A DNA stretch of 64,000 bases, taken from assembly GCA_020632395.1 (NCBI GenBank), contig JACKFQ010000002.1, forward strand, positions 83,662 through 147,661, in the 5' to 3' direction. Below, one piece after another: positions 1 to 57,990 of this stretch. Made by a program: the position numbers and the translations under genes. This stretch comes from Candidatus Nomurabacteria bacterium. GTDB taxonomy: Bacteria > Patescibacteriota > Dojkabacteria > SC72 > JAHDCA01. The first letter of the stretch is position 1. Every line of letters starts with the position of its first letter. The notes beneath the pieces are model-generated. The model ran no database searches, was not told the origin of the DNA, and saw only the letters and a list, made by a program, of their open reading frames with translations.

Positions 1-122
1 CGTGGACCCCAATGATGATCGGTCGAACGCTCCGTATCAAATCCAAGTACCTCCGAGCCAGAACCTAGCAATCCAGCAGAGTATTTGAGTCCATGAAATT
101 CTGTTTCGATGAGAGTTTTCAC
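1..122 (-). CDS. N-terminal fragment of a protein running off the left edge; possible Pol-beta-superfamily nucleotidyltransferase (GS-x7-DTE motif)
   Basis: Minus-strand frame reads VKTLIETEFHGLKYSAGLLGSGSEVLGFDTERSTDHHWGP... from a GTG at 122 to beyond position 1. By eye this stretch is about 48% GC, versus under 30% for the adjacent array. Not in the ORF track because it is partial. Confidence 0.3.
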   Translation of the reverse strand, partial: MKTLIETEFHGLKYSAGLLGSGSEVLGFDTERSTDHHWGP

Positions 123-203
123 GACCTCTTTGTAAAATTGTTCACACAGTTGTTATCTTGGAATAAACTTTGTCAAATTTGAAGTATTTAGTTTTTTACT
201 AAC

Positions 204-641
204 CTATTCGAACTTTTTGTAGAACGTTTTTTGTAGATAGCAGGTAATTGCCATTCGACTTGCATCAAAATGAGGTGTCGGGAGATTTTTTGGATCTACC
301 CATAGCCACTCATCGCATTTTTCTGGTTCCATTATTTTCAGCTCACCGGAAAAGTCCTGGGCAAGTAAGGCGATCGAAACGTAGTGTAACCCTTCTTTGT
401 TGTAAGTTTCTAAGTTGTTGGTTACGGCTACCACTCGTGGATTTTTAATGTCCAAGTCGGTTTCTTCTTTAATTTCTCTAATCGCGCCATCTTCAAATGT
501 TTCGCCTGGCTCTAGATGCCCGCCTGGAATGGAATAGTATGGAGCATGGCTATTTTTTCTTTTGCCAATAAGGACTTTTCCGTCGTGATTTACAAGAATC
601 ACGCCTAATCCAACTCTTGGTATGTTTTTTTGTTTCGTCAT
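204..641 (-). CDS. NUDIX hydrolase
   Basis: Nudix box GGHLEPGETFEDGAIREIKEETDL (GX5EX7REUXEEXGU) in the 145 aa ORF. Confidence 0.85.
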   Translation of the reverse strand: MTKQKNIPRVGLGVILVNHDGKVLIGKRKNSHAPYYSIPGGHLEPGETFEDGAIREIKEETDLDIKNPRVVAVTNNLETYNKEGLHYVSIALLAQDFSGELKIMEPEKCDEWLWVDPKNLPTPHFDASRMAITCYLQKTFYKKFE

Positions 642-670
642 ATTTTAGAAAGGTTAGTTTAAAAATCTCG

Positions 671-701
671 CATAACGTTTCCCGATGAAGCGAAGTTTTG
701 C
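671..701. repeat. Cassette-junction conserved block 1, copy A (cATAACGTTtcccgATgaagCGAAGTTTTGC)
   Basis: One of seven related 30-35 bp elements, one in each intergenic region of the 0.2-5.6 kb array. They share the palindromic core ATAACGTTA followed by ATAT and GAAGTTTTGC. Confidence 0.7.
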
Positions 702-764
702 AAATTCCTTATGTAAATTAATATTTATTGGCAAAATTTGGACGGAGAAAACAATAAATTAATT

Positions 765-1142
765 TTAGCTCCGTAACTTTACTATAGTGTCCTTGAGTTT
801 CTTCATCAAATCGTCTTTATCGGTATATTCTATAAATTTATCAGTCACGATTTTTAGTGAGCTAGATGTTCTTTGTCCTGAATGATAAATACAAATAATT
901 GGACACTTTGACAAATCAGCCCACCCAAGCTCGATTCCCAGGCCTGTCGATGGATAAGAAACCTCCGCGATCATTAAGTCGCATGTCTTTATTATATCTC
1001 GCGTTACAAAATCACTAGCGTCTTCATAGGCTTCGTGCGGCAAGATAATTTCATGCTCCGTGTTCAATAAGCTTGAACGAATTGGTTCATATAGCTCTTT
1101 TTCAAAATCGTAATCGGTAGAGTGTCCAATATATATTTTCAT
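765..1142 (-). CDS. Nucleoside 2-deoxyribosyltransferase-like protein (flavodoxin-like fold)
   Basis: Motif STGLGIELGWA resembles the NDT catalytic-Glu motif (G-T-x-x-E-x-G-x-A). Size is 125 aa. Confidence 0.55.
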   Translation of the reverse strand: MKIYIGHSTDYDFEKELYEPIRSSLLNTEHEIILPHEAYEDASDFVTRDIIKTCDLMIAEVSYPSTGLGIELGWADLSKCPIICIYHSGQRTSSSLKIVTDKFIEYTDKDDLMKKLKDTIVKLRS

Positions 1143-1228
1143 AGAAGAGGGGATAAGATTAATTTATTGTTTTATGTAGTCGCATACACATTGTTAGATG
1201 ATGTGACATAATGGATATGGAGTCATTT

Positions 1229-1260
1229 CATATAACGTTAGCGTGTATGCAAAGTATGCC
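1229..1260. repeat. Cassette-junction block 1, copy B (catATAACGTTAGCGTGTATGCaaagtatgcc)
   Basis: Shares the ATATAACGTTAG core. Its stem portion GTGTATGC has an inverted partner GCATACAC at 1182-1189, followed by attGTTAGAT. Confidence 0.65.
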
Positions 1261-1401
1261 TAAGAACGGAACTGATATTATCTTCTCAAGATTTAAGCGA
1301 ATAGGCAAATTGGGGCGAGCCATTTTTAGAAATCAGTTGCACTGGACACGACAAAATGGCTCACAGCATAGCTGCTGTTGTGTGATGTAAAAAGAAAAGC
1401 G

Positions 1402-1794
1402 CTATATGCTCTTCATCTGAATCATTTTTGCCATTGCTATATATAAAACAAGACCTACCGAATAAATGATAATATAGGGGGCAATGGCAATCCAACGGTT
1501 AATGTAAAACAGATCAACATTTTGAAATGATCTTTCTATTGTCGAACCTACTACAAAAAAACTAAGAGCAACTAATGTATTGAGTAGAATTGTAAAATAC
1601 TGCCTACTGTCATCAACATGTATTAACTTTGTAATGAAGTAAGCTATTACGATATAAGCAATGGCAAAAATGCTCGTAATTGGCAATTGCAAAATCCATC
1701 TGCCATCTGAAGGAACATTTAATAACACATAAATTGTGTTTGCCACAAGAATTATCAAGAAACTAATGATAACTGAATTTGCAATTGTTTTCAT
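1402..1794 (-). CDS. Small integral membrane protein (about 4 TM helices), function unknown
   Basis: Hydrophobic segments fill most of the 130 aa ORF. Confidence 0.5.
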   Translation of the reverse strand: MKTIANSVIISFLIILVANTIYVLLNVPSDGRWILQLPITSIFAIAYIVIAYFITKLIHVDDSRQYFTILLNTLVALSFFVVGSTIERSFQNVDLFYINRWIAIAPYIIIYSVGLVLYIAMAKMIQMKSI

Positions 1795-1846
1795 ATGGGT
1801 TTGTTATTAAATAGTAGTAGCATTTTACCATTTCGTTTTGTTTCGT

Positions 1847-1874
1847 ACAACGTTATGGATATGCGGAGTTTTTC
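1847..1874. repeat. Cassette-junction block 1, copy C (acAACGTTATGGATATgCGgAGTTTTTC)
   Basis: Core AACGTTAT plus GGATAT and AGTTTTTC, matching the other junction copies. Confidence 0.6.
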
Positions 1875-1929
1875 TGGAACGTACTGGAGTGAAAGCGCTA
1901 GTGTACCCTGGAGTTTGTCCTTCAACCCG

Positions 1930-2448
1930 TTACTTCTCATCAAGATAAGAATTAATTGCTTCATCAATAATCGTAATATCTTTGATTTTTTTACTTTCAG
2001 GATTTTTACTAAATTCTTTAATCCATTCAATACAGTCATCAATATTTTCAACAACTAAATCAGAAAAGGTCAATAGAAAAGGATGAATCCAATCATCGAT
2101 TTTTGTACCATCAAAAACAATATTTGATCTTCTATGATGTGTATCTTTTGGAATTATTGAAATTACAGGTCTTTTGAAATATTTTGCAATTACCATTTCT
2201 TGAGCAGTTCCAGCTCCAAGTTTCTTCTTAGAATCAACGATGATAATATCTGCTGTTTTTACGAGATTAGAATCATGACCAACTAATTGCAAAGGTTTAG
2301 TTTCATCTTTCCATGCATCACCATCTGTAATTTCAACATTGGGAATTTTTGAAAGTTTTTCTTTGTATTCAACTTTCCAATCTTTCCAATTTTCTCTAAC
2401 ATCATCTCCTTTTGGTATTGAACCTAATAAAAAATTTTTAAGCGTCAT
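1930..2448 (-). CDS. Nucleoside 2-deoxyribosyltransferase-like protein, second paralog
   Basis: Motif KLGAGTAQEMVIAKY resembles the NDT active-site region. Size is 172 aa. The ORF-track entry 1791..2054 is an overlapping shadow ORF. Confidence 0.5.
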   Translation of the reverse strand: MTLKNFLLGSIPKGDDVRENWKDWKVEYKEKLSKIPNVEITDGDAWKDETKPLQLVGHDSNLVKTADIIIVDSKKKLGAGTAQEMVIAKYFKRPVISIIPKDTHHRRSNIVFDGTKIDDWIHPFLLTFSDLVVENIDDCIEWIKEFSKNPESKKIKDITIIDEAINSYLDEK

Positions 2449-2510
2449 ATATTTTGTGAAAATCCTTTATAAATTAAATCTTATTCTTCTAATGGTTGTA
2501 GGGTAAATTT

Positions 2511-2543
2511 CATTTAACGTTCCTGCGTATGCGATGTTTTTGC
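2511..2543. repeat. Cassette-junction block 1, copy D (catTTAACGTTcctgcgTATgCGatgTTTTTGC)
   Basis: Degenerate copy of the junction core. Confidence 0.55.
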
Positions 2544-2550
2544 GACCAAC

Positions 2551-2645
2551 GGGAGCAAAAATATGGGTGAAGCCCGAGCCGAGGGCTGAACCGTATATCC
2601 CTTGTTATACGCCCCGACGACAGAAAGGAGGAGAGCGCAGCGTGG
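2551..2645. repeat. Cassette-junction blocks 2-3, copy D (about 95 bp)
   Basis: About 90% identical by eye to 4401-4494. Contains the CGTATAtcccttgtTATACG hairpin and GGAGGAGAGCGCAGCGTGG. Confidence 0.75.
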
Positions 2646-2774
2646 CTTGAGTTCAAAAAATATTTTTCGTTCTGATTCATCAGAGAGGCTTTCGGTTATT
2701 TCTTATAAATTTGATTTTTTCGTTTTTCTTTTTCCAAGAGGGGTTAGGGATGAATTGGAAAAAATAAAAACTCC

Positions 2775-3440
2775 TTATTCTTTTTCATTAATAACAAACC
2801 ATTCTCCTTCACTAATCACTTCAATTTTGTTGTCAATAATCTTTAATGCAGAATCATCATCAAGTGCATAAATTGTTTTGCTTATTTCTTGACCAACTTT
2901 TTCTATATTTTCTCTTCTCATTTTTTTAAACCATTCAGAATTCAAATGTGGCAAGAAATAAAAATCTACAAAGTTTAAACCTTTTAATTCTTCAGTTTCA
3001 AGCATATCTTCTTCATAAATCACTTGGGATAATTTCAATGCTAAATCAGGATTAGTAACCATACTTCCAGCAGAAACACCAACATAAACTTTATCTTTAA
3101 ATAAATCAGACAACATTTCAGATAAACCTGATTTATTTAGCCATCTCATTAGATGATAAGTATTTCCTCCTTCAAAAAACAAAACATCAGCTCTTTCTAA
3201 ACTCGGTTTCCATATTTTTTCATCAACAGCTGAAATATCAGTAATTTCAATTGATTTGAAATTTTGTTTTTTCAAATTCACTAAATCAGTAATTAGCCAA
3301 TCTTTATCGCCCGATTCAACATTGCTTGCAGTAGGAATAAAAACAACTGTTGTTTCTTCTGGTTTCTTTCCAGTTAATTCAAACAAAGCATTGGCAATTG
3401 AATTGTTTGTTAGTCCGCTTGATGTTAATAGTAGTTTCAT
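2775..3440 (-). CDS. Peptidase E / S51-family dipeptidase
   Basis: LLLTSSG ... FIPTAS ... FFEGGNTYHLMRWL ... VYVGVSAGS match S51 peptidase motifs. Size is 221 aa. Confidence 0.8.
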   Translation of the reverse strand: MKLLLTSSGLTNNSIANALFELTGKKPEETTVVFIPTASNVESGDKDWLITDLVNLKKQNFKSIEITDISAVDEKIWKPSLERADVLFFEGGNTYHLMRWLNKSGLSEMLSDLFKDKVYVGVSAGSMVTNPDLALKLSQVIYEEDMLETEELKGLNFVDFYFLPHLNSEWFKKMRRENIEKVGQEISKTIYALDDDSALKIIDNKIEVISEGEWFVINEKE

Positions 3441-3604
3441 AATAGTAGGAGTAAAGAATTAAAATTTATAAATCAATCGTTTTCGGAACGAAGTGGAGAA
3501 AACACATTATTATCCCCCTCTTTTATTTTAGAAAAAATCAAATTTATTCCCTTTTTAGAAAGCCTATTTTCATTATTCATCTTAGAAAAATATTTTTTGA
3601 ATTT

Positions 3605-3638
3605 CACATAACGTATCCGAATATGAGAAGTTTTTTGC
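3605..3638. repeat. Cassette-junction block 1, copy E (cacATAACGTATCCGaATATgaGAAGTTTTTTGC)
   Basis: Junction core. A possible partner arm CGGATAatcagtGTTATAC lies at 3785-3803, just before the stop codon of the upstream gene. Confidence 0.6.
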
Positions 3639-3813
3639 CGGATTTCCCAGTATTTATGTACAGTTTAGCACATTCGTTCGACATTTGAATATGCTTTAAT
3701 TGATCGCCATTCGTAGGCAAAAAATTTGGATGGAATGAAAAAGACAAGTCCTTAAATTATTCAAAAGTGTCTTTTTCATGGAACCGGATAATCAGTGTTA
3801 TACGAGAGTTGAA

Positions 3814-4341
3814 TTAAGCGGCTCCTAGCAGTTTCAACATTTTCTCAGACCAATCAGTATTGCCCTTTGTTATTTCCTCCTTGAAAAATTTTATCATCAG
3901 CTGTTTTGGCTCATCCGATATTGCACAGTGCTTAATTTCTGGCCAAAATTCACGATACCATAATCCGATATTATCATGTTTTAAGTCGCAAGCACCGCCA
4001 TTTGGATCAGGTTCAATAAACAAAATCCTGTCTACGTGATTTGTAACAGAAGCTCCCAAGCATTGAATACAAGGTTCAAGCGTACTGTATAGAGAGACAA
4101 TTTTTGAATTATCCTTACGAACTTCCGCCAGCTCTTTGCCGTACTTAATTATTAGAGAATTTTCGGCATGATTCACAAAGGATTTTTGTTTATTGATTTC
4201 GTTGCCAGCGACGCCAAGCGTTTTATTATTGATAGCCAAAACAGCCCCCACAGGATAGTTCCCAAGCTTGAAAGTTTCTCTAGCAATACTGATGGCCGAC
4301 TCCAAGCATTGTTTATCGAATTGTGTTATTTCTTGCACCAT
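3814..4341 (-). CDS. CMP/dCMP-type (cytidine/deoxycytidylate family) zinc deaminase
   Basis: HAE (VNHAENSL) and PCxxC (LEPCIQCLG) zinc-binding motifs. Size is 175 aa. Confidence 0.75.
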   Translation of the reverse strand: MVQEITQFDKQCLESAISIARETFKLGNYPVGAVLAINNKTLGVAGNEINKQKSFVNHAENSLIIKYGKELAEVRKDNSKIVSLYSTLEPCIQCLGASVTNHVDRILFIEPDPNGGACDLKHDNIGLWYREFWPEIKHCAISDEPKQLMIKFFKEEITKGNTDWSEKMLKLLGAA

Positions 4342-4360
4342 ACAGAGCTTAATTCAATTT

Positions 4361-4391
4361 CATATAACGTTAGGGATATACGAAGTTTTGC
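4361..4391. repeat. Cassette-junction block 1, copy F (catATAACGTTAGGGATATACGAAGTTTTGC), the best-preserved copy
   Basis: ATATAAC-GTTA-GGGATATACG is the reverse complement of CGTATATCCC-TT-GTTATAC at 4442-4460, with a 2-nt versus 4-nt bulge. Confidence 0.75.
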
Positions 4392-4400
4392 GGAGTGAAA

Positions 4401-4494
4401 CGGAGCAAAATTTGGGTGAGGGGCGAGCCGAGCACCGAACCGTATATCCCTTGTTATACGCCCCGACGACCAAAGGGAGGAGAGCGCAGCGTGG
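4401..4494. repeat. Cassette-junction blocks 2-3, copy F
   Basis: Near-identical to 2551-2645. Contains the right arm of the attC-like inverted repeat. Confidence 0.75.
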
Positions 4495-4516
4495 TTCGTG
4501 GCGATAGCCGAGAAAG

Positions 4517-4553
4517 TCAGAAGTCGGCTTTTTTCTTTTTTATGAGCGCACAC
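4517..4553. repeat. Left arm of an imperfect inverted repeat flanking the methyltransferase gene
   Basis: TCAGAAGTCGGCTTTT ... TGAGCGCACAC are the reverse complements of AAAAGCCGACTTCTGA and GTGTGCGCTCA at 5425-5464. This arm abuts the stop codon. Confidence 0.7.
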
Positions 4554-5381
4554 CTATTTTTTCTTAACAATTATCATCATATGTCCACTTAAATCAACAA
4601 TTATTGGATCGGTGCAAATTTTGTTATGAATGGCTAACCAATTTTTCCATGCTTTTGGATATTTCTTTGCAAATTTATTTGTCGCTTCAGGATTTACATT
4701 TAAGCCTTCAAGACCCACTTTCTCAAGAATTTGCACATCTTTTTTGGTAAAAATGGACTCAAGCTCTGATGAGGTAAAATAATGACAATAGCCATCTCCT
4801 CTCCATTTATAATCTTCACCATCAGATACCAGTCCCTCGAAATGCTTTTTGTAAACTACTTCTTGTGGCCAACCAAGAGGAGTGGCTAGGAGTACCCCAT
4901 ACTTGCTCATTACTGAAACAAAAATTAAAGCACCCTTTTTTGCGACTCTAATTAATTCGTCAATTGCTTTTAGTCTTTCGGATTCTGGGCTGACATGAGA
5001 GAGTGGTCCGCCCAAGCACAATACTACATCAAAAGAATTATTTTCAAATTCAGATAAGTCTGTAATAGACCCCTCTACAATATCTTTAATTTTTGTTTGT
5101 ACCTTTGCTTTTTTAATTTGTTCCCTAGCAAGTTCTAGGTGTTCTGTGACCAAATCCAGAAGAACAACATCATATCCCATTTTTGCCAATTCAATTGAGT
5201 ATCTTCCGGGACCACCACCTGCGTCAAGAATTACTCCAGATTTTGGAAGATATTTTTTTAGGAATTTTATTGATGTGTCAAATTCTATTTTATGAAAGGG
5301 GTCTTGTGCTAATCTATTCCATTCATAAAGAGCATCTTTTTTGTAATTCTTTTTGGTTAGTTTTGTAGTCTTGTTTGCCAT
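4554..5381 (-). CDS. Class I SAM-dependent methyltransferase
   Basis: Motif I VILDAGGGPGRYSIELAK with the acidic residue at VVLLDL. Size is 275 aa. Confidence 0.8.
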   Translation of the reverse strand: MANKTTKLTKKNYKKDALYEWNRLAQDPFHKIEFDTSIKFLKKYLPKSGVILDAGGGPGRYSIELAKMGYDVVLLDLVTEHLELAREQIKKAKVQTKIKDIVEGSITDLSEFENNSFDVVLCLGGPLSHVSPESERLKAIDELIRVAKKGALIFVSVMSKYGVLLATPLGWPQEVVYKKHFEGLVSDGEDYKWRGDGYCHYFTSSELESIFTKKDVQILEKVGLEGLNVNPEATNKFAKKYPKAWKNWLAIHNKICTDPIIVDLSGHMMIIVKKK

Positions 5382-5424: not shown

Positions 5425-5464
5425 GTGTGCGCTCATTCCTTCTTAATTAAAAGCCGACTTCTGA
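5425..5464. repeat. Right arm of the inverted repeat flanking the methyltransferase gene
   Basis: GTGTGCGCTCA ... AAAAGCCGACTTCTGA. A 16-nt and an 11-nt perfect reverse-complement match to 4517-4553, with different spacers. Confidence 0.7.
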
Positions 5465-5466
5465 TT

Positions 5467-5500
5467 GCGTATAACTCGTTACTATACGAAGTGTTTTCGC
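5467..5500. repeat. Cassette-junction block 1, copy G (attI-equivalent position next to the recombinase)
   Basis: gcGTATAACtcGTTActATACGAAGTgTTTTcGC lies between the first array gene and the divergent tyrosine recombinase gene. Confidence 0.6.
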
Positions 5501-5590: not shown

Positions 5591-6403
5591 ATGAAAAAAG
5601 AAATTACAGCAACTGTACGAGAATTAAAAATTCGCAATTACAGTTCTAAAACAATAAAAAGCTACACTAGTGGAATTCAAAAATACTTTCGGTTCAAGAA
5701 AAATAATTTCCAACAGCTAGATATCCACAATATACAAAACTTTTTACTCTCCTGTTCAGATAAAGGACTGTCTGCTAAGACAAGAGATCTATATTTGAAT
5801 TCAATTAAATTCTATTACCACAACGTCATTAAAACTTCAAAAAAGGTAGACATCAAATCTGCAAAACAAAATAAAAGTCTCCCTGTTATATTGAATCGCA
5901 AGGAAATCACAAAGTTGAGTGAAGTCATAAATAACCCCAAACACAAATTAATCATCTTGCTAGCATATGGAGCAGGATTAAGAGTTAGCGAAGTCGTCAA
6001 CTTAAAGGTCAAGGACGTAGATATTGATAATCTCACACTCCATATTAAGAAAGCCAAGGGGAAAAAGGATAGAATTACTATTATCCCAGAAAAAATTAAG
6101 GATGATCTGAAATTGATAATTAATTCAAGAGATCAAAACGAATATGTTTTTACAAGTGAACGAGGAGGAAATCTTACAACTCGTACTGCACAAAAGATTT
6201 TTACTAATGCTCTGAAAAAAGCAGGAATTAAGAAGGAGACGACATTTCATTCACTACGCCATAGCTTTGCAACTCACTTACTAGAAAACGGAGTTGATAT
6301 CAGATATGTTCAAGAATTACTTGGTCATCAAAATATTAGAACCACACAAAGATATACTCAAGTTACAAATCCGAAACTAAAAAACATTAAAAGTCCCCTC
6401 TGA
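5591..6403 (+). CDS. Tyrosine site-specific recombinase (XerC/XerD/phage-integrase family, 270 aa)
   Basis: Box I LRVSEV, box II HSLRHSFAT, catalytic Tyr in LGHQNIRTTQRYTQV. About 91 residues separate the box I Arg from the box II His, matching the Xer spacing, so no IntI-type insertion. Confidence 0.9.
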   Translation: MKKEITATVRELKIRNYSSKTIKSYTSGIQKYFRFKKNNFQQLDIHNIQNFLLSCSDKGLSAKTRDLYLNSIKFYYHNVIKTSKKVDIKSAKQNKSLPVILNRKEITKLSEVINNPKHKLIILLAYGAGLRVSEVVNLKVKDVDIDNLTLHIKKAKGKKDRITIIPEKIKDDLKLIINSRDQNEYVFTSERGGNLTTRTAQKIFTNALKKAGIKKETTFHSLRHSFATHLLENGVDIRYVQELLGHQNIRTTQRYTQVTNPKLKNIKSPL

Positions 6404-6561: not shown

Positions 6562-6711
6562 TGGTCGGGGAGACAGGACCATCTCGGCAAACATGCCTCG
6601 ATGTATGATGCAGAATAATTCTACTGCATCATAGGTCCCTGCAGTAGGTTCAAGTCCAAATACACCATCCATACAGAGTAAACGACCACCTAACGGTGGT
6701 CATTTACTCTG
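6562..6711. repeat. 150 bp module at the 3' end of tRNA-Pro(CGG); duplicated at 22862-23012
   Basis: Nearly identical to the copy at 22862-23012. Begins with GTCGGGGAGACAGGAC, a 16-nt direct repeat of the tRNA 3' end. Contains the hairpins TGATGCAG/CTGCATCA and GACCACC-TAAC-GGTGGTC. Confidence 0.8.
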
Positions 6712-6785
6712 TCGGGGAGACAGGACTTGAACCTGCGACCTCTGCAACCCGAATGCAGCGTTCTAGCCATCTGAACTACTCCCCG
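6712..6785 (-). tRNA. tRNA-Pro, anticodon CGG
   Basis: Manual cloverleaf: acceptor CGGGGAG/CTCCCCG, D-stem GTTC/GAAC, anticodon arm CTGCA-TTCGGGT-TGCAG, T-arm GCAGG-TTCAAGT-CCTGT, discriminator A. Length 74 nt with no encoded CCA. Confidence 0.85.
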
Positions 6786-56065: not shown

Positions 56066-56747
56066 ATTTTTGCAACTCCTTCAGTAAATTTTCATGAATT
56101 ACCTCAATCGAAGGTGTTGCGTCGATCTCAAGCAGGATACCTCTGCTACGATAGGTATCTAATATTGGTTTTAGATCGTCATTATACCATTCCAAGCGTT
56201 TTGCTATAGCATCAGGATTGTCATCCTCTCGTTTGACAAGAGGTGTTCCATCATTATCACAAAAACCTTCTTTTTTCTCTTTTTTGTATAGTGAATGGTA
56301 TGTAGTACCACATTTTTCACAGTAGGTTCGCAGAGACATCCTCTCGATAGCTGCTGATTCTGTAAGTTTGAAATGTACAAAAAGATCTAAGGTTCGGTCG
56401 AACTTCTGAACAAGTTTATCAAAAAGATCGATCTGTGTTTCTTTTCGGACAGGTGATACAAAGAACCATGGTTTTTTGGGGTCAAGCCTAGGTAACCACT
56501 CCTCAAAGATCAAATATACATCTTCATCAGAAGCTAGCTTGCCAACCCTGGTATTCTCATAGGCGCTAAGTGCTCTGGGATGACCTTCTTTTTTTAATAT
56601 CTCCATTAAGCTACTAAACCCTATCCTTTCATAATCGATCGTTCTTTCAAGGAGATCCAATTGCGTATCTTTCCCTGAACCTGATGGCCCATGAAAAATT
56701 GCAGTTCTGAGTGTTTTTTTAGAGGTATCTATCATAACTTCGTACAA
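56058..56747 (-). CDS. adk: Adenylate kinase (canonical operon copy)
   Basis: GPSGSGKDTQ P-loop, LID with CEKCG. Confidence 0.9.
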   Translation of the reverse strand: MYEVMIDTSKKTLRTAIFHGPSGSGKDTQLDLLERTIDYERIGFSSLMEILKKEGHPRALSAYENTRVGKLASDEDVYLIFEEWLPRLDPKKPWFFVSPVRKETQIDLFDKLVQKFDRTLDLFVHFKLTESAAIERMSLRTYCEKCGTTYHSLYKKEKKEGFCDNDGTPLVKREDDNPDAIAKRLEWYNDDLKPILDTYRSRGILLEIDATPSIEVIHENLLKELQKYA

Positions 56748-57990
56748 CGATCATTGATTCGATCTGACGTTTGATCTCAAGTACTGTACCAATAATGATC
56801 AGTAGACCAGTTCCTGACATTATCGTTGCAGATAATATACCTGTCTGAACAAGCACATTTGGGAGGATTGCAAGTGTAGCTAAAAATACTCCCCCTACTG
56901 CAGTTAATCGGAATGATGATTTCCTCAAGAAAGATGCAGTTTGTTTACCAGGCCTGATACCGGGGATGAAAGCTCCTTGTTTCTGCAAATTCTCAGCTAA
57001 CTCATCCGCGTTGAAAACAACTGTCACATAGAAGAATGAAAATGCTATTACCAGGAGGAATGTTGCTATATCTACCGTAAGTGGGTTAGAAAGATATCGT
57101 ATGATATCAGATGAGATCTCAGTCAATTTGGTATTGAAATCCCTACTCACTAGGAATTGTGCTATCAATTGTGGGAAACTTATCAATGAAACGGCAAAGA
57201 TCACTGGCATCACACCAAATTGTGTAAGCTTGATAGGGACATAATTATCTTGCACACCAGTAGCCCTAACTCTGCGTGAGTACATTACCTTTATTCGTCT
57301 CTCTCCTTGTGTGAGGAAAATAGTTATTGCAAAGATCGCCAAAAGGATAAACACAAACCATATCATCTGTAACGTATCAGCTGTTCTGATATTGTTAGAA
57401 ACAATGCTTGGTAGAGAAGCGAGAATTCCTATAGCTATGAGGTAGGATGATCCTTGCCCTATACCTTTATCTGTAACAAGTTCGCCCATCCACATCATCA
57501 GTAGTGCGCCTCCTGTGAGAGCACTAACCATGGTAATGAGTTCCAAAGTTTGTAGTTCTCCGACCAATCCGAAGCCTCTAAGAGTTGAGTATATAACGAA
57601 TGATTGAAGGATTGCGAAAGGAACTGTGAGATACCGTGTGTACATACTAATGATCCTTCGACCCTGTGAACCTTCCTTCCGAAGTTCTTCTAGTTTGGGG
57701 ATAACGGTTCCTAGAAGTTGGAGGATGATAGAAGCATTGATATATGGTCCTAATCCGATAGCTACAATTGATGCAGTCTCAAGCACTCCACCAGAGACCG
57801 TTGATATTGTATCTCCGATACCACCTAATTGACCAAATAACTGTGAAAGACTTTCACGATCTATACCAACAACAGGTACAGCAGCAAGCAATCTGAAAAT
57901 TACCAATATAATGACGATAAAGTAGACCCTCTGTCGGATCTCAGGTGTAGAGTAGGCTGCTTTGATTGATTGGATAGAGTCCTTTAACAT
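56719..57990 (-). CDS. secY: Preprotein translocase subunit SecY
   Basis: 423 aa with 10 TM helices and the operon context. Confidence 0.9.
   Translation of the reverse strand: MLKDSIQSIKAAYSTPEIRQRVYFIVIILVIFRLLAAVPVVGIDRESLSQLFGQLGGIGDTISTVSGGVLETASIVAIGLGPYINASIILQLLGTVIPKLEELRKEGSQGRRIISMYTRYLTVPFAILQSFVIYSTLRGFGLVGELQTLELITMVSALTGGALLMMWMGELVTDKGIGQGSSYLIAIGILASLPSIVSNNIRTADTLQMIWFVFILLAIFAITIFLTQGERRIKVMYSRRVRATGVQDNYVPIKLTQFGVMPVIFAVSLISFPQLIAQFLVSRDFNTKLTEISSDIIRYLSNPLTVDIATFLLVIAFSFFYVTVVFNADELAENLQKQGAFIPGIRPGKQTASFLRKSSFRLTAVGGVFLATLAILPNVLVQTGILSATIMSGTGLLIIIGTVLEIKRQIESMIVVRSYDRYL

What the first reader, a model, noticed from the sequence alone, without database searches (positions are those of the whole stretch)
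204..5381. Cargo of the array is dominated by nucleotide and nucleoside-modifying enzymes
Five of the seven array genes act on nucleotides or nucleosides: NUDIX hydrolase, two nucleoside-2-deoxyribosyltransferase-like proteins, a CMP/dCMP-family deaminase and a SAM methyltransferase. The other two are a peptidase and a membrane protein. The left-edge gene fragment (1-122) also looks like a nucleotidyltransferase. This could be a salvage toolkit of an auxotrophic symbiont. It could alternatively be a set of nucleotide-pool-manipulating defence or counter-defence genes; NDT-like, deaminase and NUDIX domains all recur in anti-phage systems. Acquisition as cassettes would fit either reading.
Basis: inference. 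Interest (0 to 1): 0.5.

Follow-up and report, generated by a model that had tools for sequence, protein, structure and literature searches.

The report
Nucleotide enzymes in a CPR cassette array
A small bacterial symbiont carries a row of mobile single-gene cassettes, four of which encode enzymes that cut or edit nucleotides; they look like ordinary scavenging genes of such symbionts rather than an anti-virus kit.

Summary
The seven minus-strand genes at 204-5381 are real. They sit as separate cassettes in an integron-like array beside a divergent tyrosine recombinase (5591-6403), in a Patescibacteria (CPR) MAG.

Four of the seven, not five, are nucleotide enzymes:
- a MutT/NUDT15-like NUDIX hydrolase;
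- a 125-aa protein with the DNPH1/BcmB/MilB nucleotide N-glycosidase fold and its catalytic Glu;
- a 172-aa protein of the deoxyribosyltransferase superfamily, from a family seen only in CPR bacteria and DPANN archaea;
- a rare TadA-fold deaminase.

The methyltransferase resembles small-molecule methyltransferases. The left-edge "nucleotidyltransferase" is an 80-aa remnant with no detectable family. An identical metagenome contig extends the array by three more genes unrelated to nucleotides, so the share is 4 of about 10.

Homologues of both deoxyribosyltransferase-like families occur as cassettes and also as ordinary chromosomal genes. None of the nine contexts examined held defence genes, and PADLOC gave only domain-level hits. 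GC content shows the cassettes came from different donors.

Best reading: separately captured scavenging and pool-cleaning enzymes typical of these symbionts. A defence role is unsupported but not excluded.

The parts
1..122 (-). Start of an 80-aa truncated ORF (GTG at 122). It continues on the identical contig L001 at 2449-2691.
   Evidence: ORF and sequence. No hit in Pfam, NCBIfam, PADLOC or PDB. The GSGS...D.E motif is visible in the sequence only.
204..641 (-). NUDIX hydrolase cassette gene (145 aa) of the MutT/NUDT15/NUDX1 type. Nudix box present: GHLEPGETFEDGAIREIKEETDL.
   Evidence: PF00293, 79.2 bits. Best PDB matches are 4kyx ADP-ribose pyrophosphatase MutT (5e-30), AtNUDX1 and NUDT15. 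PADLOC PDC-S07, 1e-13. GC 0.409, close to the host.
765..1142 (-). 125-aa NDT-superfamily protein with the DNPH1/Rcl/BcmB/MilB nucleoside-5'-monophosphate N-glycosidase fold. Catalytic Glu is E71.
   Evidence: PF05014 scores 21.1, below the 28.8 cutoff. Rcl alignment AEV..PS.G.G.ELG. More than 1000 homologues, all named ones from Patescibacteria. E71 is invariant. Model pLDDT 91; Foldseek TM 0.68-0.78.
1402..1794 (-). 130-aa hydrophobic orphan protein, about 4 predicted membrane helices.
   Evidence: Sequence. Only a sub-threshold ABC2_membrane hit. It is the sole member of its 90% identity cluster. GC 0.313.
1930..2448 (-). 172-aa NDT-superfamily protein from a highly conserved family confined to CPR bacteria and DPANN archaea. 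Conserved motifs: PKGD, GHD, GAGTAQE, PKDTHHR, WIHPF.
2775..3440 (-). Peptidase S51 (dipeptidase E / cyanophycinase family) cassette gene, 221 aa.
   Evidence: PF03575, 112 bits. PepE equivalog 51.7, below the 156 cutoff. Its 90% identity cluster has 38 members in several CPR lineages, including Shapirobacteria. GC 0.288.
3814..4341 (-). TadA/CDA-fold zinc deaminase, 175 aa, with HAE and PCxxC motifs. Rare accessory clade; substrate unknown.
   Evidence: PF00383, 54 bits. TadA equivalog 51.1, below the 150 cutoff; anti-phage dCTP deaminase 16.2, below 400. Best PDB matches are TadA at 4e-13, then cytosine and guanosine deaminases. Only 6 cluster representatives at E<=1e-30 among 1.84 billion. 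One relative is fused to a PHP phosphoesterase.
4554..5381 (-). Class I SAM methyltransferase, 275 aa; the first cassette next to the attI-like site. It resembles small-molecule methyltransferases.
   Evidence: Methyltransf_25/11. All NCBIfam hits are below cutoff, led by UbiG, CmoM and BchM. PDB matches are 2avn, 3sm3 and glycine/sarcosine N-methyltransferase. The PADLOC mad2 match covers the methyltransferase domain only.
668..702 (-). Cassette-boundary site (L'-R' end of an attC-like element) upstream of the NUDIX gene.
   Evidence: nhmmer 13.6 bits. Core ACGTTATGCGAGAT.
1223..1261 (-). Cassette-boundary site upstream of the 125-aa gene.
   Evidence: 27.9 bits. Core ACGTTATATGAAAT.
1841..1874 (-). 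Cassette-boundary site upstream of the membrane-protein gene.
   Evidence: 22.4 bits.
2506..2543 (-). Cassette-boundary site upstream of the 172-aa gene. It is the 3' end of an attC-like element that shares an 88-nt repeat with the one at 4407-4494.
   Evidence: 29.7 bits. Repeat D1, 89% identical.
3599..3634 (-). Cassette-boundary site upstream of the S51 gene.
   Evidence: 33.7 bits.
4355..4393 (-). Cassette-boundary site upstream of the deaminase gene. Together with its inverted copy around 4450-4470 it folds into a long imperfect hairpin.
   Evidence: 31.7 bits. Predicted fold -50.3 kcal/mol, with R''/L'' pairing L'/R'.
5465..5500 (-). attI-like site between the recombinase gene and the first cassette: GCGAAAACACTTCGTATAGTAACGAGTTATACGC in gene orientation.
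   Evidence: Read from the sequence. It has the same left arm and GTTAT core as the cassette sites. Its function is inferred.
5591..6403 (+). Divergent 270-aa tyrosine recombinase. It is related to IntI but lacks the IntI-specific additional domain.
   Evidence: NF040815 'XerA/integron integrase' 232.8, above the 220 cutoff; TIGR02249 212.8, below 265 and split into two stretches. 30-35% identity to IntI1, with about 42 residues missing around the ALER region. More than 8000 relatives.

Best explanation
The seven genes are independent single-gene cassettes in an integron-like array on the chromosome of a Patescibacteria (CPR) bacterium. NCBI labels the MAG 'Candidatus Nomurabacteria'; its SecY is identical to that of Dojkabacteria MAGs.

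Four cassettes encode small nucleotide-metabolising enzymes:
- a MutT/NUDT15-like NUDIX pyrophosphatase;
- a DNPH1/BcmB/MilB-like nucleoside-5'-monophosphate N-glycosidase;
- a second deoxyribosyltransferase-superfamily enzyme from a CPR/DPANN-restricted family;
- a rare TadA-fold nucleoside or base deaminase.

The other three are a small-molecule-type methyltransferase, an S51 dipeptidase-like hydrolase and an orphan membrane protein.

The cassettes were captured one at a time from the gene pool shared by ultra-small symbionts. They most likely serve scavenging and nucleotide-pool maintenance, not anti-phage defence. They do not form a dedicated operon or system.

Inferred chemistry:
1. The NUDIX enzyme trims (d)NTP or NDP-X to monophosphates.
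2. The N-glycosidases split (d)NMPs or nucleosides into base plus sugar phosphate.
3. The deaminase interconverts bases.
4. The products feed phosphoribosyl-transfer and kinase salvage and central carbon metabolism.

Shown here: the domains, the folds, the catalytic Glu, the cassette boundaries, the mixed origins and the homologue contexts. Inferred: the substrates, the pathway logic and expression.
For: Cassette organisation:
- Six conserved site ends lie just upstream of the genes, only in 665-4393, against 0.01 expected by chance.
- The recombinase is divergent.
- The same site type occurs in many CPR loci and metagenome contigs.

Enzyme identities.

Lifestyle-linked distribution:
- The 125-aa family has more than 1000 members, and every named one is from Patescibacteria.
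- The 172-aa family has 270 members. Apart from one MAG labelled Verrucomicrobiae, the named ones are all from CPR and DPANN; it has 17 invariant residues.

Homologue contexts:
- Cassettes in L007, L008 and L213.
- Ordinary chromosomal genes in L010, L212, L214, L223 and L224, next to the CCA-adding enzyme, RNase P, RNase HII and aminoacyl-tRNA synthetases.
- The same families recur together elsewhere. L214 has S51, the 172-aa family and NUDIX. L213 has two NUDIX plus the 172-aa family. L008 has the 125-aa family with MazG, HD and HAD. L054 has two NUDIX genes in a seven-gene array.

No defence neighbour was seen in nine contexts. That is the eight above plus L226, for a deaminase relative.

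Separate acquisition:
- GC is 0.285-0.288 for the 172-aa and S51 genes and 0.37-0.41 for NUDIX, the deaminase and the 125-aa gene. Core genes average 0.407 +/- 0.014.
- The S51 cluster at 90% identity or more spans several CPR lineages.

A relative of the deaminase is fused to a PHP phosphoesterase, which hints at a small-molecule substrate.
Against: - No substrate was tested and none can be read from sequence. The 125-aa family does not conserve the Ser that aligns with the Rcl phosphate-binding 'PS' (the consensus is A at position 65).
- The 172-aa family has conserved motifs of its own (PKGD, HHR, WIHPF) that no characterised relative explains.
- The deaminase is closest to tRNA deaminases and could act on RNA.
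- Only 64 kb of the genome was available. Whether the core genome already has, or lacks, these activities is unknown; there are no paralogues in the window.
- The enrichment test is post hoc. The comparison set is small (74 proteins), and half of it rests on my own ORF and site calls.
- Integron cassettes in Vibrio frequently turn out to be anti-phage. NUDIX, deaminase and NDT/TIR-like folds do occur in immune systems.
- Expression is not shown. Promoter-like matches do not exceed shuffled sequence.
Confidence: 0.5

Rival explanations
1. Defence or counter-defence. One or more of the NUDIX, N-glycosidase-like and deaminase cassettes protect against viruses by manipulating the nucleotide pool. 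They might destroy modified (d)NMPs or (d)NTPs that phages need (DNPH1 and MilB hydrolyse 5-hydroxymethyl-dUMP and hydroxymethyl-CMP), deplete dCTP, or degrade immune or viral signalling nucleotides. The integron-like array would act as a store of such single-gene systems.
For: - About 18% of tested Vibrio cholerae chromosomal-integron cassettes are anti-phage, and defence categories are enriched among environmental cassettes (PMC10661359).
- The NUDIX protein matches the PADLOC candidate PDC-S07 at 1e-13 over the full profile.
- The nearest solved relatives of the 125-aa protein include enzymes specific for hydroxymethylated pyrimidine nucleotides.
- Related arrays carry DNA methyltransferases (N6_N4, D12), a Bro-N protein and an Ltp-type lipoprotein.
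- A bPH_2 + Schlafen/AlbA_2 protein lies just beyond the array end on L001.
Against: - No complete known system was found. PADLOC hits are at domain level only: the NUDIX E-value is weaker than its generic Pfam NUDIX match, and mad2 matches the methyltransferase core only.
- The anti-phage dCTP deaminase model scores 16 against a cutoff of 400.
- PHROGs gives nothing for the two NDT-like proteins or the deaminase.
- None of the nine homologue neighbourhoods contained defence genes, and five are housekeeping contexts.
- The 172-aa family is up to 73% identical between CPR bacteria and proteins named as DPANN archaea. Their viruses differ, so a shared lifestyle is the simpler explanation than a shared enemy.
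Confidence: 0.2
2. No functional theme. The array is a random draw from a very diverse cassette pool. The apparent dominance of nucleotide enzymes comes from a broad, post hoc category, from domain-level labels, and from the window cutting off the less fitting half of the array.
For: - The count drops from the claimed 5 of 7 to 4 of about 10 once the methyltransferase is re-read and the array is completed.
- The cassettes have clearly different origins.
- Related arrays are very diverse. Among 74 proteins, most families occur once and most proteins have no Pfam hit.
- With a 10% base rate, four or more of 11 has P = 0.019 before any correction for selection.
Against: - At the measured base rate of 5.4% the nominal P is 0.002.
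- Similar clusters of nucleotide hydrolases recur in independent arrays: L008, L054 and L213.
- NUDIX (3 of 74) shares the top rank among families in related cassettes with the overlapping class I methyltransferase models (also 3 of 74), which suggests a real bias in this cassette pool.
Confidence: 0.3

Closest known systems
Sedentary chromosomal integrons and their gene cassettes (Vibrio and Xanthomonas SCIs; archaeal integrons of Ghaly et al. 2022, PMC9668308)
   Same: - A divergent tyrosine recombinase, an attI-like site, and co-oriented short single-gene cassettes.
- Each cassette is followed by an imperfect-palindrome site ending in a GTTRRRY-like core (...AAC|GTTAT...).
- The cargo is heterogeneous, mostly unannotated and of mixed origin.
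- Related cassettes are found in both Bacteria and DPANN Archaea.
   Different: - The recombinase is 270 aa and lacks the IntI-specific additional domain that defines integron integrases, including the archaeal ones (PMC9668308).
- Several attC-like elements are long (about 200 nt) and only some show a clear hairpin.
- The host is a CPR bacterium. The text searches found no paper devoted to integrons in that group; CPR/Patescibacteria and integrons co-occur only in passing in resistome and MAG surveys.
DNPH1/Rcl, BcmB and MilB: 2'-deoxynucleoside or nucleoside 5'-monophosphate N-glycosidases of the deoxyribosyltransferase superfamily
   Same: The 125-aa protein shares the fold (TM 0.68-0.78, about 23% identity) and the AEV..P.xGxGxELG segment carrying the catalytic Glu. 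The N-terminal Tyr (Y4) and an Asp (D49) sit where the Rcl catalytic Tyr and Asp are expected; that placement is my inference from the alignments.
   Different: - It is below the Pfam threshold for PF05014.
- It is shorter, at 125 aa.
- The residue aligned with the Rcl phosphate-binding Ser is usually Ala in the family.
- The substrate is untested.
Nucleoside 2-deoxyribosyltransferases (PF05014) and YtoQ-like proteins
   Different: - No sequence-level match to Pfam or PDB.
- It has an extra beta-hairpin (residues 106-121) and family-specific invariant motifs (PKGD, GHD, HHR, WIHPF).
- Among named members, all but one MAG (labelled Verrucomicrobiae) are CPR or DPANN.
Nucleotide-depletion anti-phage enzymes (dCTP deaminase, dGTPase) and PADLOC candidate PDC-S07
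   Same: They share domain classes: a zinc deaminase fold and a NUDIX fold.
   Different: - The anti-phage dCTP deaminase model scores 16 against a cutoff of 400, and the kinase-like N-terminal domain is absent (175 aa).
- The PDC-S07 match is no stronger than a generic NUDIX match.
- There is no defence-island context.

Membership tests
Integron (sensu stricto) | An integrase with the IntI-specific additional domain around patch III (ALER region) | tested here: not met
   The protein is 270 aa. TIGR02249 scores 212.8, below the 265 cutoff, and matches in two stretches. Alignment with IntI1 shows about 42 residues missing in exactly this region.
Integron (sensu stricto) | An array of co-oriented cassettes, each ending in an attC site with R''-L''...L'-R' imperfect inverted repeats and a GTT core at the crossover point | tested here: inconclusive
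   Six conserved L'-R' ends with an AAC|GTT core lie just upstream of the genes. A full hairpin is clear for the methyltransferase cassette (-50.3 kcal/mol). The matching R''-L'' half can be read from the sequence in the S51 and deaminase cassettes, although the computed fold of the S51 element did not pair it. It is weak or absent in the others. Recombination was not tested.
Integron (sensu stricto) | An attI site and a cassette promoter next to a divergent integrase gene | tested here: inconclusive
   An attI-like sequence with the same arm and core lies at about 5465-5500. Promoter-like matches at 5510-5481 and 5424-5395 are no more frequent than in shuffled sequence.
NUDIX hydrolases (PF00293) | Pfam gathering score and the Nudix box GX5EX7REUXEEXGU | tested here: met
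   79.2 bits against a cutoff of 21.1. The box GHLEPGETFEDGAIREIKEETDL matches except for the last G, which is D (sequence).
Nucleoside 2-deoxyribosyltransferase family (PF05014) | Pfam gathering score | tested here: not met
   The 125-aa protein scores 21.1, below 28.8. The 172-aa protein has no hit. Some homologues of each family do carry PF05014 in precomputed annotation.
Deoxyribosyltransferase / DNPH1 superfamily (fold level) | The flavodoxin-like NDT fold, with the nucleophile Glu at the end of the GxGxxxE loop | tested here: met
DNPH1/Rcl-type dNMP N-glycosidases | 5'-phosphate-binding serines and hydrolase (not transferase) activity on monophosphates | not testable with these tools
   The position aligned with the Rcl 'PS' Ser is Ser in this protein but Ala in most family members. 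Activity needs biochemistry.
tRNA adenosine deaminase TadA (NF008113) | NCBIfam equivalog cutoff | tested here: not met
   51.1 bits against a cutoff of 150. Only 6 cluster representatives reach E<=1e-30 in 1.84 billion, so this is a rare clade and not the universal TadA. The HAE and PCxxC zinc motifs are present.
Anti-phage dCTP deaminase (NF041025) | NCBIfam equivalog cutoff and two-domain architecture | tested here: not met
   16.2 bits against a cutoff of 400. The protein is a 175-aa single domain.
Known or candidate anti-phage systems (PADLOC-DB 2.0) | A match to all required components of a system, or defence-island context | tested here: not met
   Only NUDIX to PDC-S07 (48.8 bits) and the methyltransferase core to mad2 (profile positions 279-396 of 492). 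The other cassette proteins and the four further array ORFs on L001 have no hit; the protein beyond the array end has only a weak SduA match. No defence genes in nine homologue neighbourhoods.
Peptidase S51 (PF03575) | Pfam gathering score | tested here: met
   112 bits against 23.9, covering the full profile. The PepE equivalog is not met (51.7 against 156).

The most novel reading that the evidence does not exclude
The two deoxyribosyltransferase-superfamily cassettes belong to uncharacterised, strongly constrained enzyme families confined to ultra-small symbionts: CPR bacteria, and for one family also DPANN archaea. An integron-like system whose recombinase lacks the canonical IntI domain shuttles them between genomes, possibly across domains. 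They would be either key enzymes by which these organisms live off scavenged nucleotides, or single-gene antiviral enzymes that destroy modified nucleotides.
Probability: 0.25. Interest if true: 0.65.

Novelty: new member of a known kind. Interest (0 to 1): 0.35.

Why it matters
CPR bacteria and DPANN archaea cannot make nucleotides and must take them from hosts, yet the enzymes involved are poorly defined. This locus shows that nucleotide-processing enzymes circulate among them as mobile cassettes. These include two conserved but uncharacterised deoxyribosyltransferase-like families.

The locus gives concrete, small, expressible candidates for biochemical and phage-challenge tests: 125, 172, 145 and 175 aa.

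It also documents cargo for an integron-like platform in CPR whose recombinase lacks the hallmark IntI domain. That bears on how far the integron concept extends. By itself the cargo list is not surprising, because cassette arrays are known to carry assorted small enzymes.

Tried and rejected
- **Left-edge 'nucleotidyltransferase'.** The 80-aa ORF was searched in Pfam, NCBIfam, PADLOC and PDB with no hit. The label is left unconfirmed.
- **Methyltransferase as a nucleotide enzyme.** Rejected, because the nearest curated and solved relatives are small-molecule methyltransferases.
- **Deaminase as the housekeeping TadA, or as the anti-phage dCTP deaminase.** Both rejected on curated cutoffs and on rarity.
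- **PHROGs.** Only generic NUDIX and methyltransferase families matched.
- **Strain-level variation of the array.** I looked up contigs carrying the neighbouring kinase gene. All 8 contigs shown (of 23 read) stop at the tRNA-Pro next to the recombinase, probably an assembly break at a repeated tRNA sequence, so this was uninformative.
- **Conserved S51 + 172-aa gene pair.** They are adjacent here and nearly adjacent in L214, but this occurs in only 1 of 5 other contexts, and here the two are separated by a cassette site. Treated as coincidence.
- **Promoter and terminator scan.** Not above shuffled sequence.
- **Paralogues of the cassette genes in the other 58 kb.** None found.
- **Caveat on the site model.** Five of its 32 seed sequences are this array's own sites, so their E-values are partly circular. 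The other 27 seeds come from unrelated loci.

Full report
**What is there**

Seven ORFs lie on the minus strand between 204 and 5381. To their right is a divergent 270-aa tyrosine recombinase (5591-6403, plus strand), then tRNA-Pro(cgg) at 6711-6785.

Exact-sequence look-ups place the window in an NCBI metagenome-assembled genome labelled 'Candidatus Nomurabacteria bacterium' (proteins MCB9803666-MCB9803675, contig 262,826 bp). Its SecY is identical to that of 'Candidatus Dojkabacteria' MAGs. The host is therefore a Patescibacteria (CPR) bacterium.

The rest of the window is ordinary chromosome. It holds an NMP kinase-like gene, an M20 peptidase, an ABC transporter and what looks, by gene size and order only, like a ribosomal-protein block; SecY at 56719-57990 was identified.

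**The array premise**

In gene orientation, every gene from NUDIX to the deaminase is preceded by a conserved element of the form ...GCAAAACTTCGyATAnnnnnnAAC|GTTATrTGAAAT.

- A degenerate core pattern, ACGTTRWRYGARAY, occurs six times, all on the minus strand between 665 and 4370. It occurs nowhere else in the 64 kb, against 0.01 expected. The pattern was derived from these same sites.
- For the methyltransferase cassette, an inverted copy of the element lies downstream of the stop codon, and the whole unit folds into a long imperfect hairpin. The same inverted half can be read in the S51 cassette and, less completely, in the deaminase cassette. The others are less clear.
- An attI-like sequence with the same arm and core sits at about 5465-5500.
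- The same site type flanks small co-oriented genes next to related recombinases in many CPR loci, and it occurs on many metagenome contigs.

The recombinase passes NCBIfam NF040815, 'XerA/integron integrase' (232.8 against a cutoff of 220). It fails the integron-integrase model TIGR02249 (212.8 against 265, in two stretches). It is 30-35% identical to IntI1 but lacks about 42 residues that form the IntI-specific additional domain.

So this is an integron-like cassette array, not an integron in the strict sense. I treat it as context here, because the finding under review is the cargo.

**The array is cut by the window**

A Logan contig, L001, is 100% identical to window 1-2570 and continues leftwards.

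- The left-edge ORF is only 80 aa and ends in a stop codon. It has no hit in any library.
- It is followed by a Cys-rich 163-aa protein with a C-terminal membrane anchor, then a 200-aa unknown. One more site follows at L001:3975.
- A GNAT acetyltransferase comes next, and then an oppositely oriented DsbD gene marks the end of the array.

**What the seven proteins are**

- **NUDIX (204-641).** PF00293 at 79.2 bits, with an intact Nudix box. The nearest solved relatives are a MutT-type ADP-ribose pyrophosphatase, plant NUDX1 and human NUDT15, which are pool-sanitising enzymes.
- **125-aa protein (765-1142).** It scores below threshold for PF05014. It aligns with Rcl/DNPH1 across the segment that carries the catalytic Glu. 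Its family has more than 1000 members, and all named ones are from Patescibacteria; E71 is invariant. The AlphaFold model (pLDDT 91) matches BcmB, DNPH1 and MilB at TM 0.68-0.78.
- **Deaminase (3814-4341).** PF00383, with HAE and PCxxC motifs. It is closest to TadA but far below the TadA equivalog cutoff and the anti-phage dCTP deaminase cutoff. It belongs to a rare clade, with 6 cluster representatives at E<=1e-30 among 1.84 billion. The one named close relative is from Dojkabacteria; the other close relatives are unnamed proteins on short contigs. One relative is fused to a PHP phosphoesterase.
- **Methyltransferase (4554-5381).** A generic class I enzyme. Its best curated and solved relatives act on small molecules.
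- **S51 protein (2775-3440).** A full-length family member.
- **130-aa protein (1402-1794).** A hydrophobic orphan.

Four of the seven are nucleotide, nucleoside or base enzymes. That is four of about ten in the full array.

**Is that unusual?**

I collected 74 non-redundant proteins at cassette positions in related arrays. These were either the first ORF after a site scoring 16 bits or more, or minus-strand genes upstream of related recombinases.

The Pfam census shows a very diverse pool: three class I methyltransferases, three NUDIX, three DNA methyltransferases, and otherwise single occurrences. Most proteins are unannotated.

NUDIX plus NDT-like proteins make up 4 of 74 (5.4%). Four or more of 11 then has nominal P = 0.002, or 0.019 at a 10% base rate. 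This is post hoc and should not be over-read.

Nucleotide hydrolases do cluster in other arrays:
- L054 has two NUDIX genes in a seven-gene array.
- L213 has two NUDIX genes plus the 172-aa family.
- L008 has the 125-aa family with MazG, HD and HAD.

**Salvage or defence?**

Homologue neighbourhoods are the most informative evidence.

- The 125-aa family is a site-flanked cassette in L007 and L008. In L010 it is a tightly packed chromosomal gene between the CCA-adding enzyme and IF2, near a NUDIX gene.
- The 172-aa family is in a cassette-like run in L213. In L212, L214, L223 and L224 it is an ordinary chromosomal gene next to RNase P p30, RNase HII, aminoacyl-tRNA synthetases, a DNA glycosylase and a carbohydrate kinase.
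- A deaminase relative sits beside UDP-glucose dehydrogenase and an RsmB-type methyltransferase.

No restriction, CRISPR, abortive-infection or other defence gene appeared in these nine contexts.

PADLOC gave only a NUDIX match to the candidate PDC-S07 and a partial methyltransferase-core match to mad2. PHROGs gave nothing for the NDT-like proteins or the deaminase.

A family shared at high identity by CPR bacteria and proteins named as DPANN archaea fits a function tied to their common host-dependent, nucleotide-scavenging lifestyle better than one tied to their different viruses. That last step is my inference.

Against this, integron cassettes are a documented reservoir of compact anti-phage genes (10.1101/2024.07.02.601686; PMC10661359). 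In addition, DNPH1 and MilB act on hydroxymethylated pyrimidine nucleotides. A defence role for one or more cassettes therefore remains possible.

**Origins**

Core genes in the window have GC 0.407 +/- 0.014. The cassette genes range widely:
- 172-aa and S51 genes: 0.285 and 0.288, with GC3 of 0.145 and 0.167.
- Membrane protein, recombinase and methyltransferase: 0.31-0.35.
- NUDIX, deaminase and 125-aa genes: 0.37-0.41.

The S51 protein has relatives at 90% identity or more in several CPR lineages.

The cassettes were therefore acquired separately from different donors. That argues against a co-evolved module, and for repeated capture from a shared pool.

**Verdict**

Capture as cassettes is confirmed. 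Scavenging and pool maintenance is the better-supported reading. Defence is unsupported but not excluded.

As cargo, this is a new member of a known kind. The more interesting threads are the two uncharacterised deoxyribosyltransferase-like families restricted to CPR and DPANN, and the IntI-related recombinase that lacks the IntI domain.

Noticed in passing
window 5591-6403 (+), with sites at 665-4393 (-) and about 5465-5500: The recombinase that serves this attC-type array is only 270 aa and lacks the IntI-specific additional domain. About 42 residues are missing relative to IntI1, including the ALER region. Its family is very large (more than 8000 hits) and is 60-85% identical across CPR lineages. 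Relatives also occur in DPANN archaea and Bacteroidota, some next to similar arrays. The left arm of the site (AACTTCGTATA) resembles a lox arm.
   Followed up: partly
window 4517-4553 and 5425-5464: The methyltransferase cassette gene is bracketed by an inverted repeat of about 38 nt (GTGTGCGCTCAT...AAAAGCCGACTTCTGA on each side). The repeat lies inside the cassette and is separate from the attC-like element. Its meaning is unknown.
   Followed up: no
window 6564-6579 and 6711-6726: The 3' 16 nt of tRNA-Pro(cgg) (GTCGGGGAGACAGGAC) are repeated 147 nt away, between the recombinase gene and the tRNA. This could be the remnant of an integration at the tRNA gene. All 8 metagenome contigs shown (of 23 read) that carry the neighbouring kinase gene end at this tRNA.
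   Followed up: partly
window 2558-2645 and 4407-4494: The attC-like elements of the S51 and methyltransferase cassettes share an 88-nt stretch at 89% identity. This suggests a common donor array or a common mode of cassette genesis. It probably also causes the assembly breaks seen at the ends of contigs L001-L006.
   Followed up: no
L001 2368-3975 (continuation left of window position 1): No boundary site was detected between the NUDIX gene and L001:3975. The NUDIX gene, the 80-aa remnant, the 163-aa Cys-rich protein and the 200-aa ORF may therefore form one fused or decayed multi-gene unit.
   Followed up: partly
L001 6053-7057: Just beyond the end of the array, after DsbD, lies a 334-aa membrane-anchored protein with bacterial PH (bPH_2) and Schlafen/AlbA_2 domains. 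It has a weak PADLOC SduA (DUF4263) match at E 1e-4.
   Followed up: no
L214 5857-7540; window 1930-3440: An S51 peptidase gene lies upstream of the 172-aa family gene both in this array and in an unrelated chromosomal context. That context is in an organism that reads in-frame stop codons, probably using an alternative genetic code. The pairing was seen in only 1 of 5 other contexts, so it may be chance.
   Followed up: partly
L060, L067, L079, L088 (Bacteroidota loci), downstream of the recombinase match: Flavobacteriia and Cytophagia genomes with 39-41% identical recombinases carry long runs of repeats ending in ...AAACGTTRG..., downstream of the recombinase gene and on the same strand. These look like arrays with the opposite gene order.
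   Followed up: no
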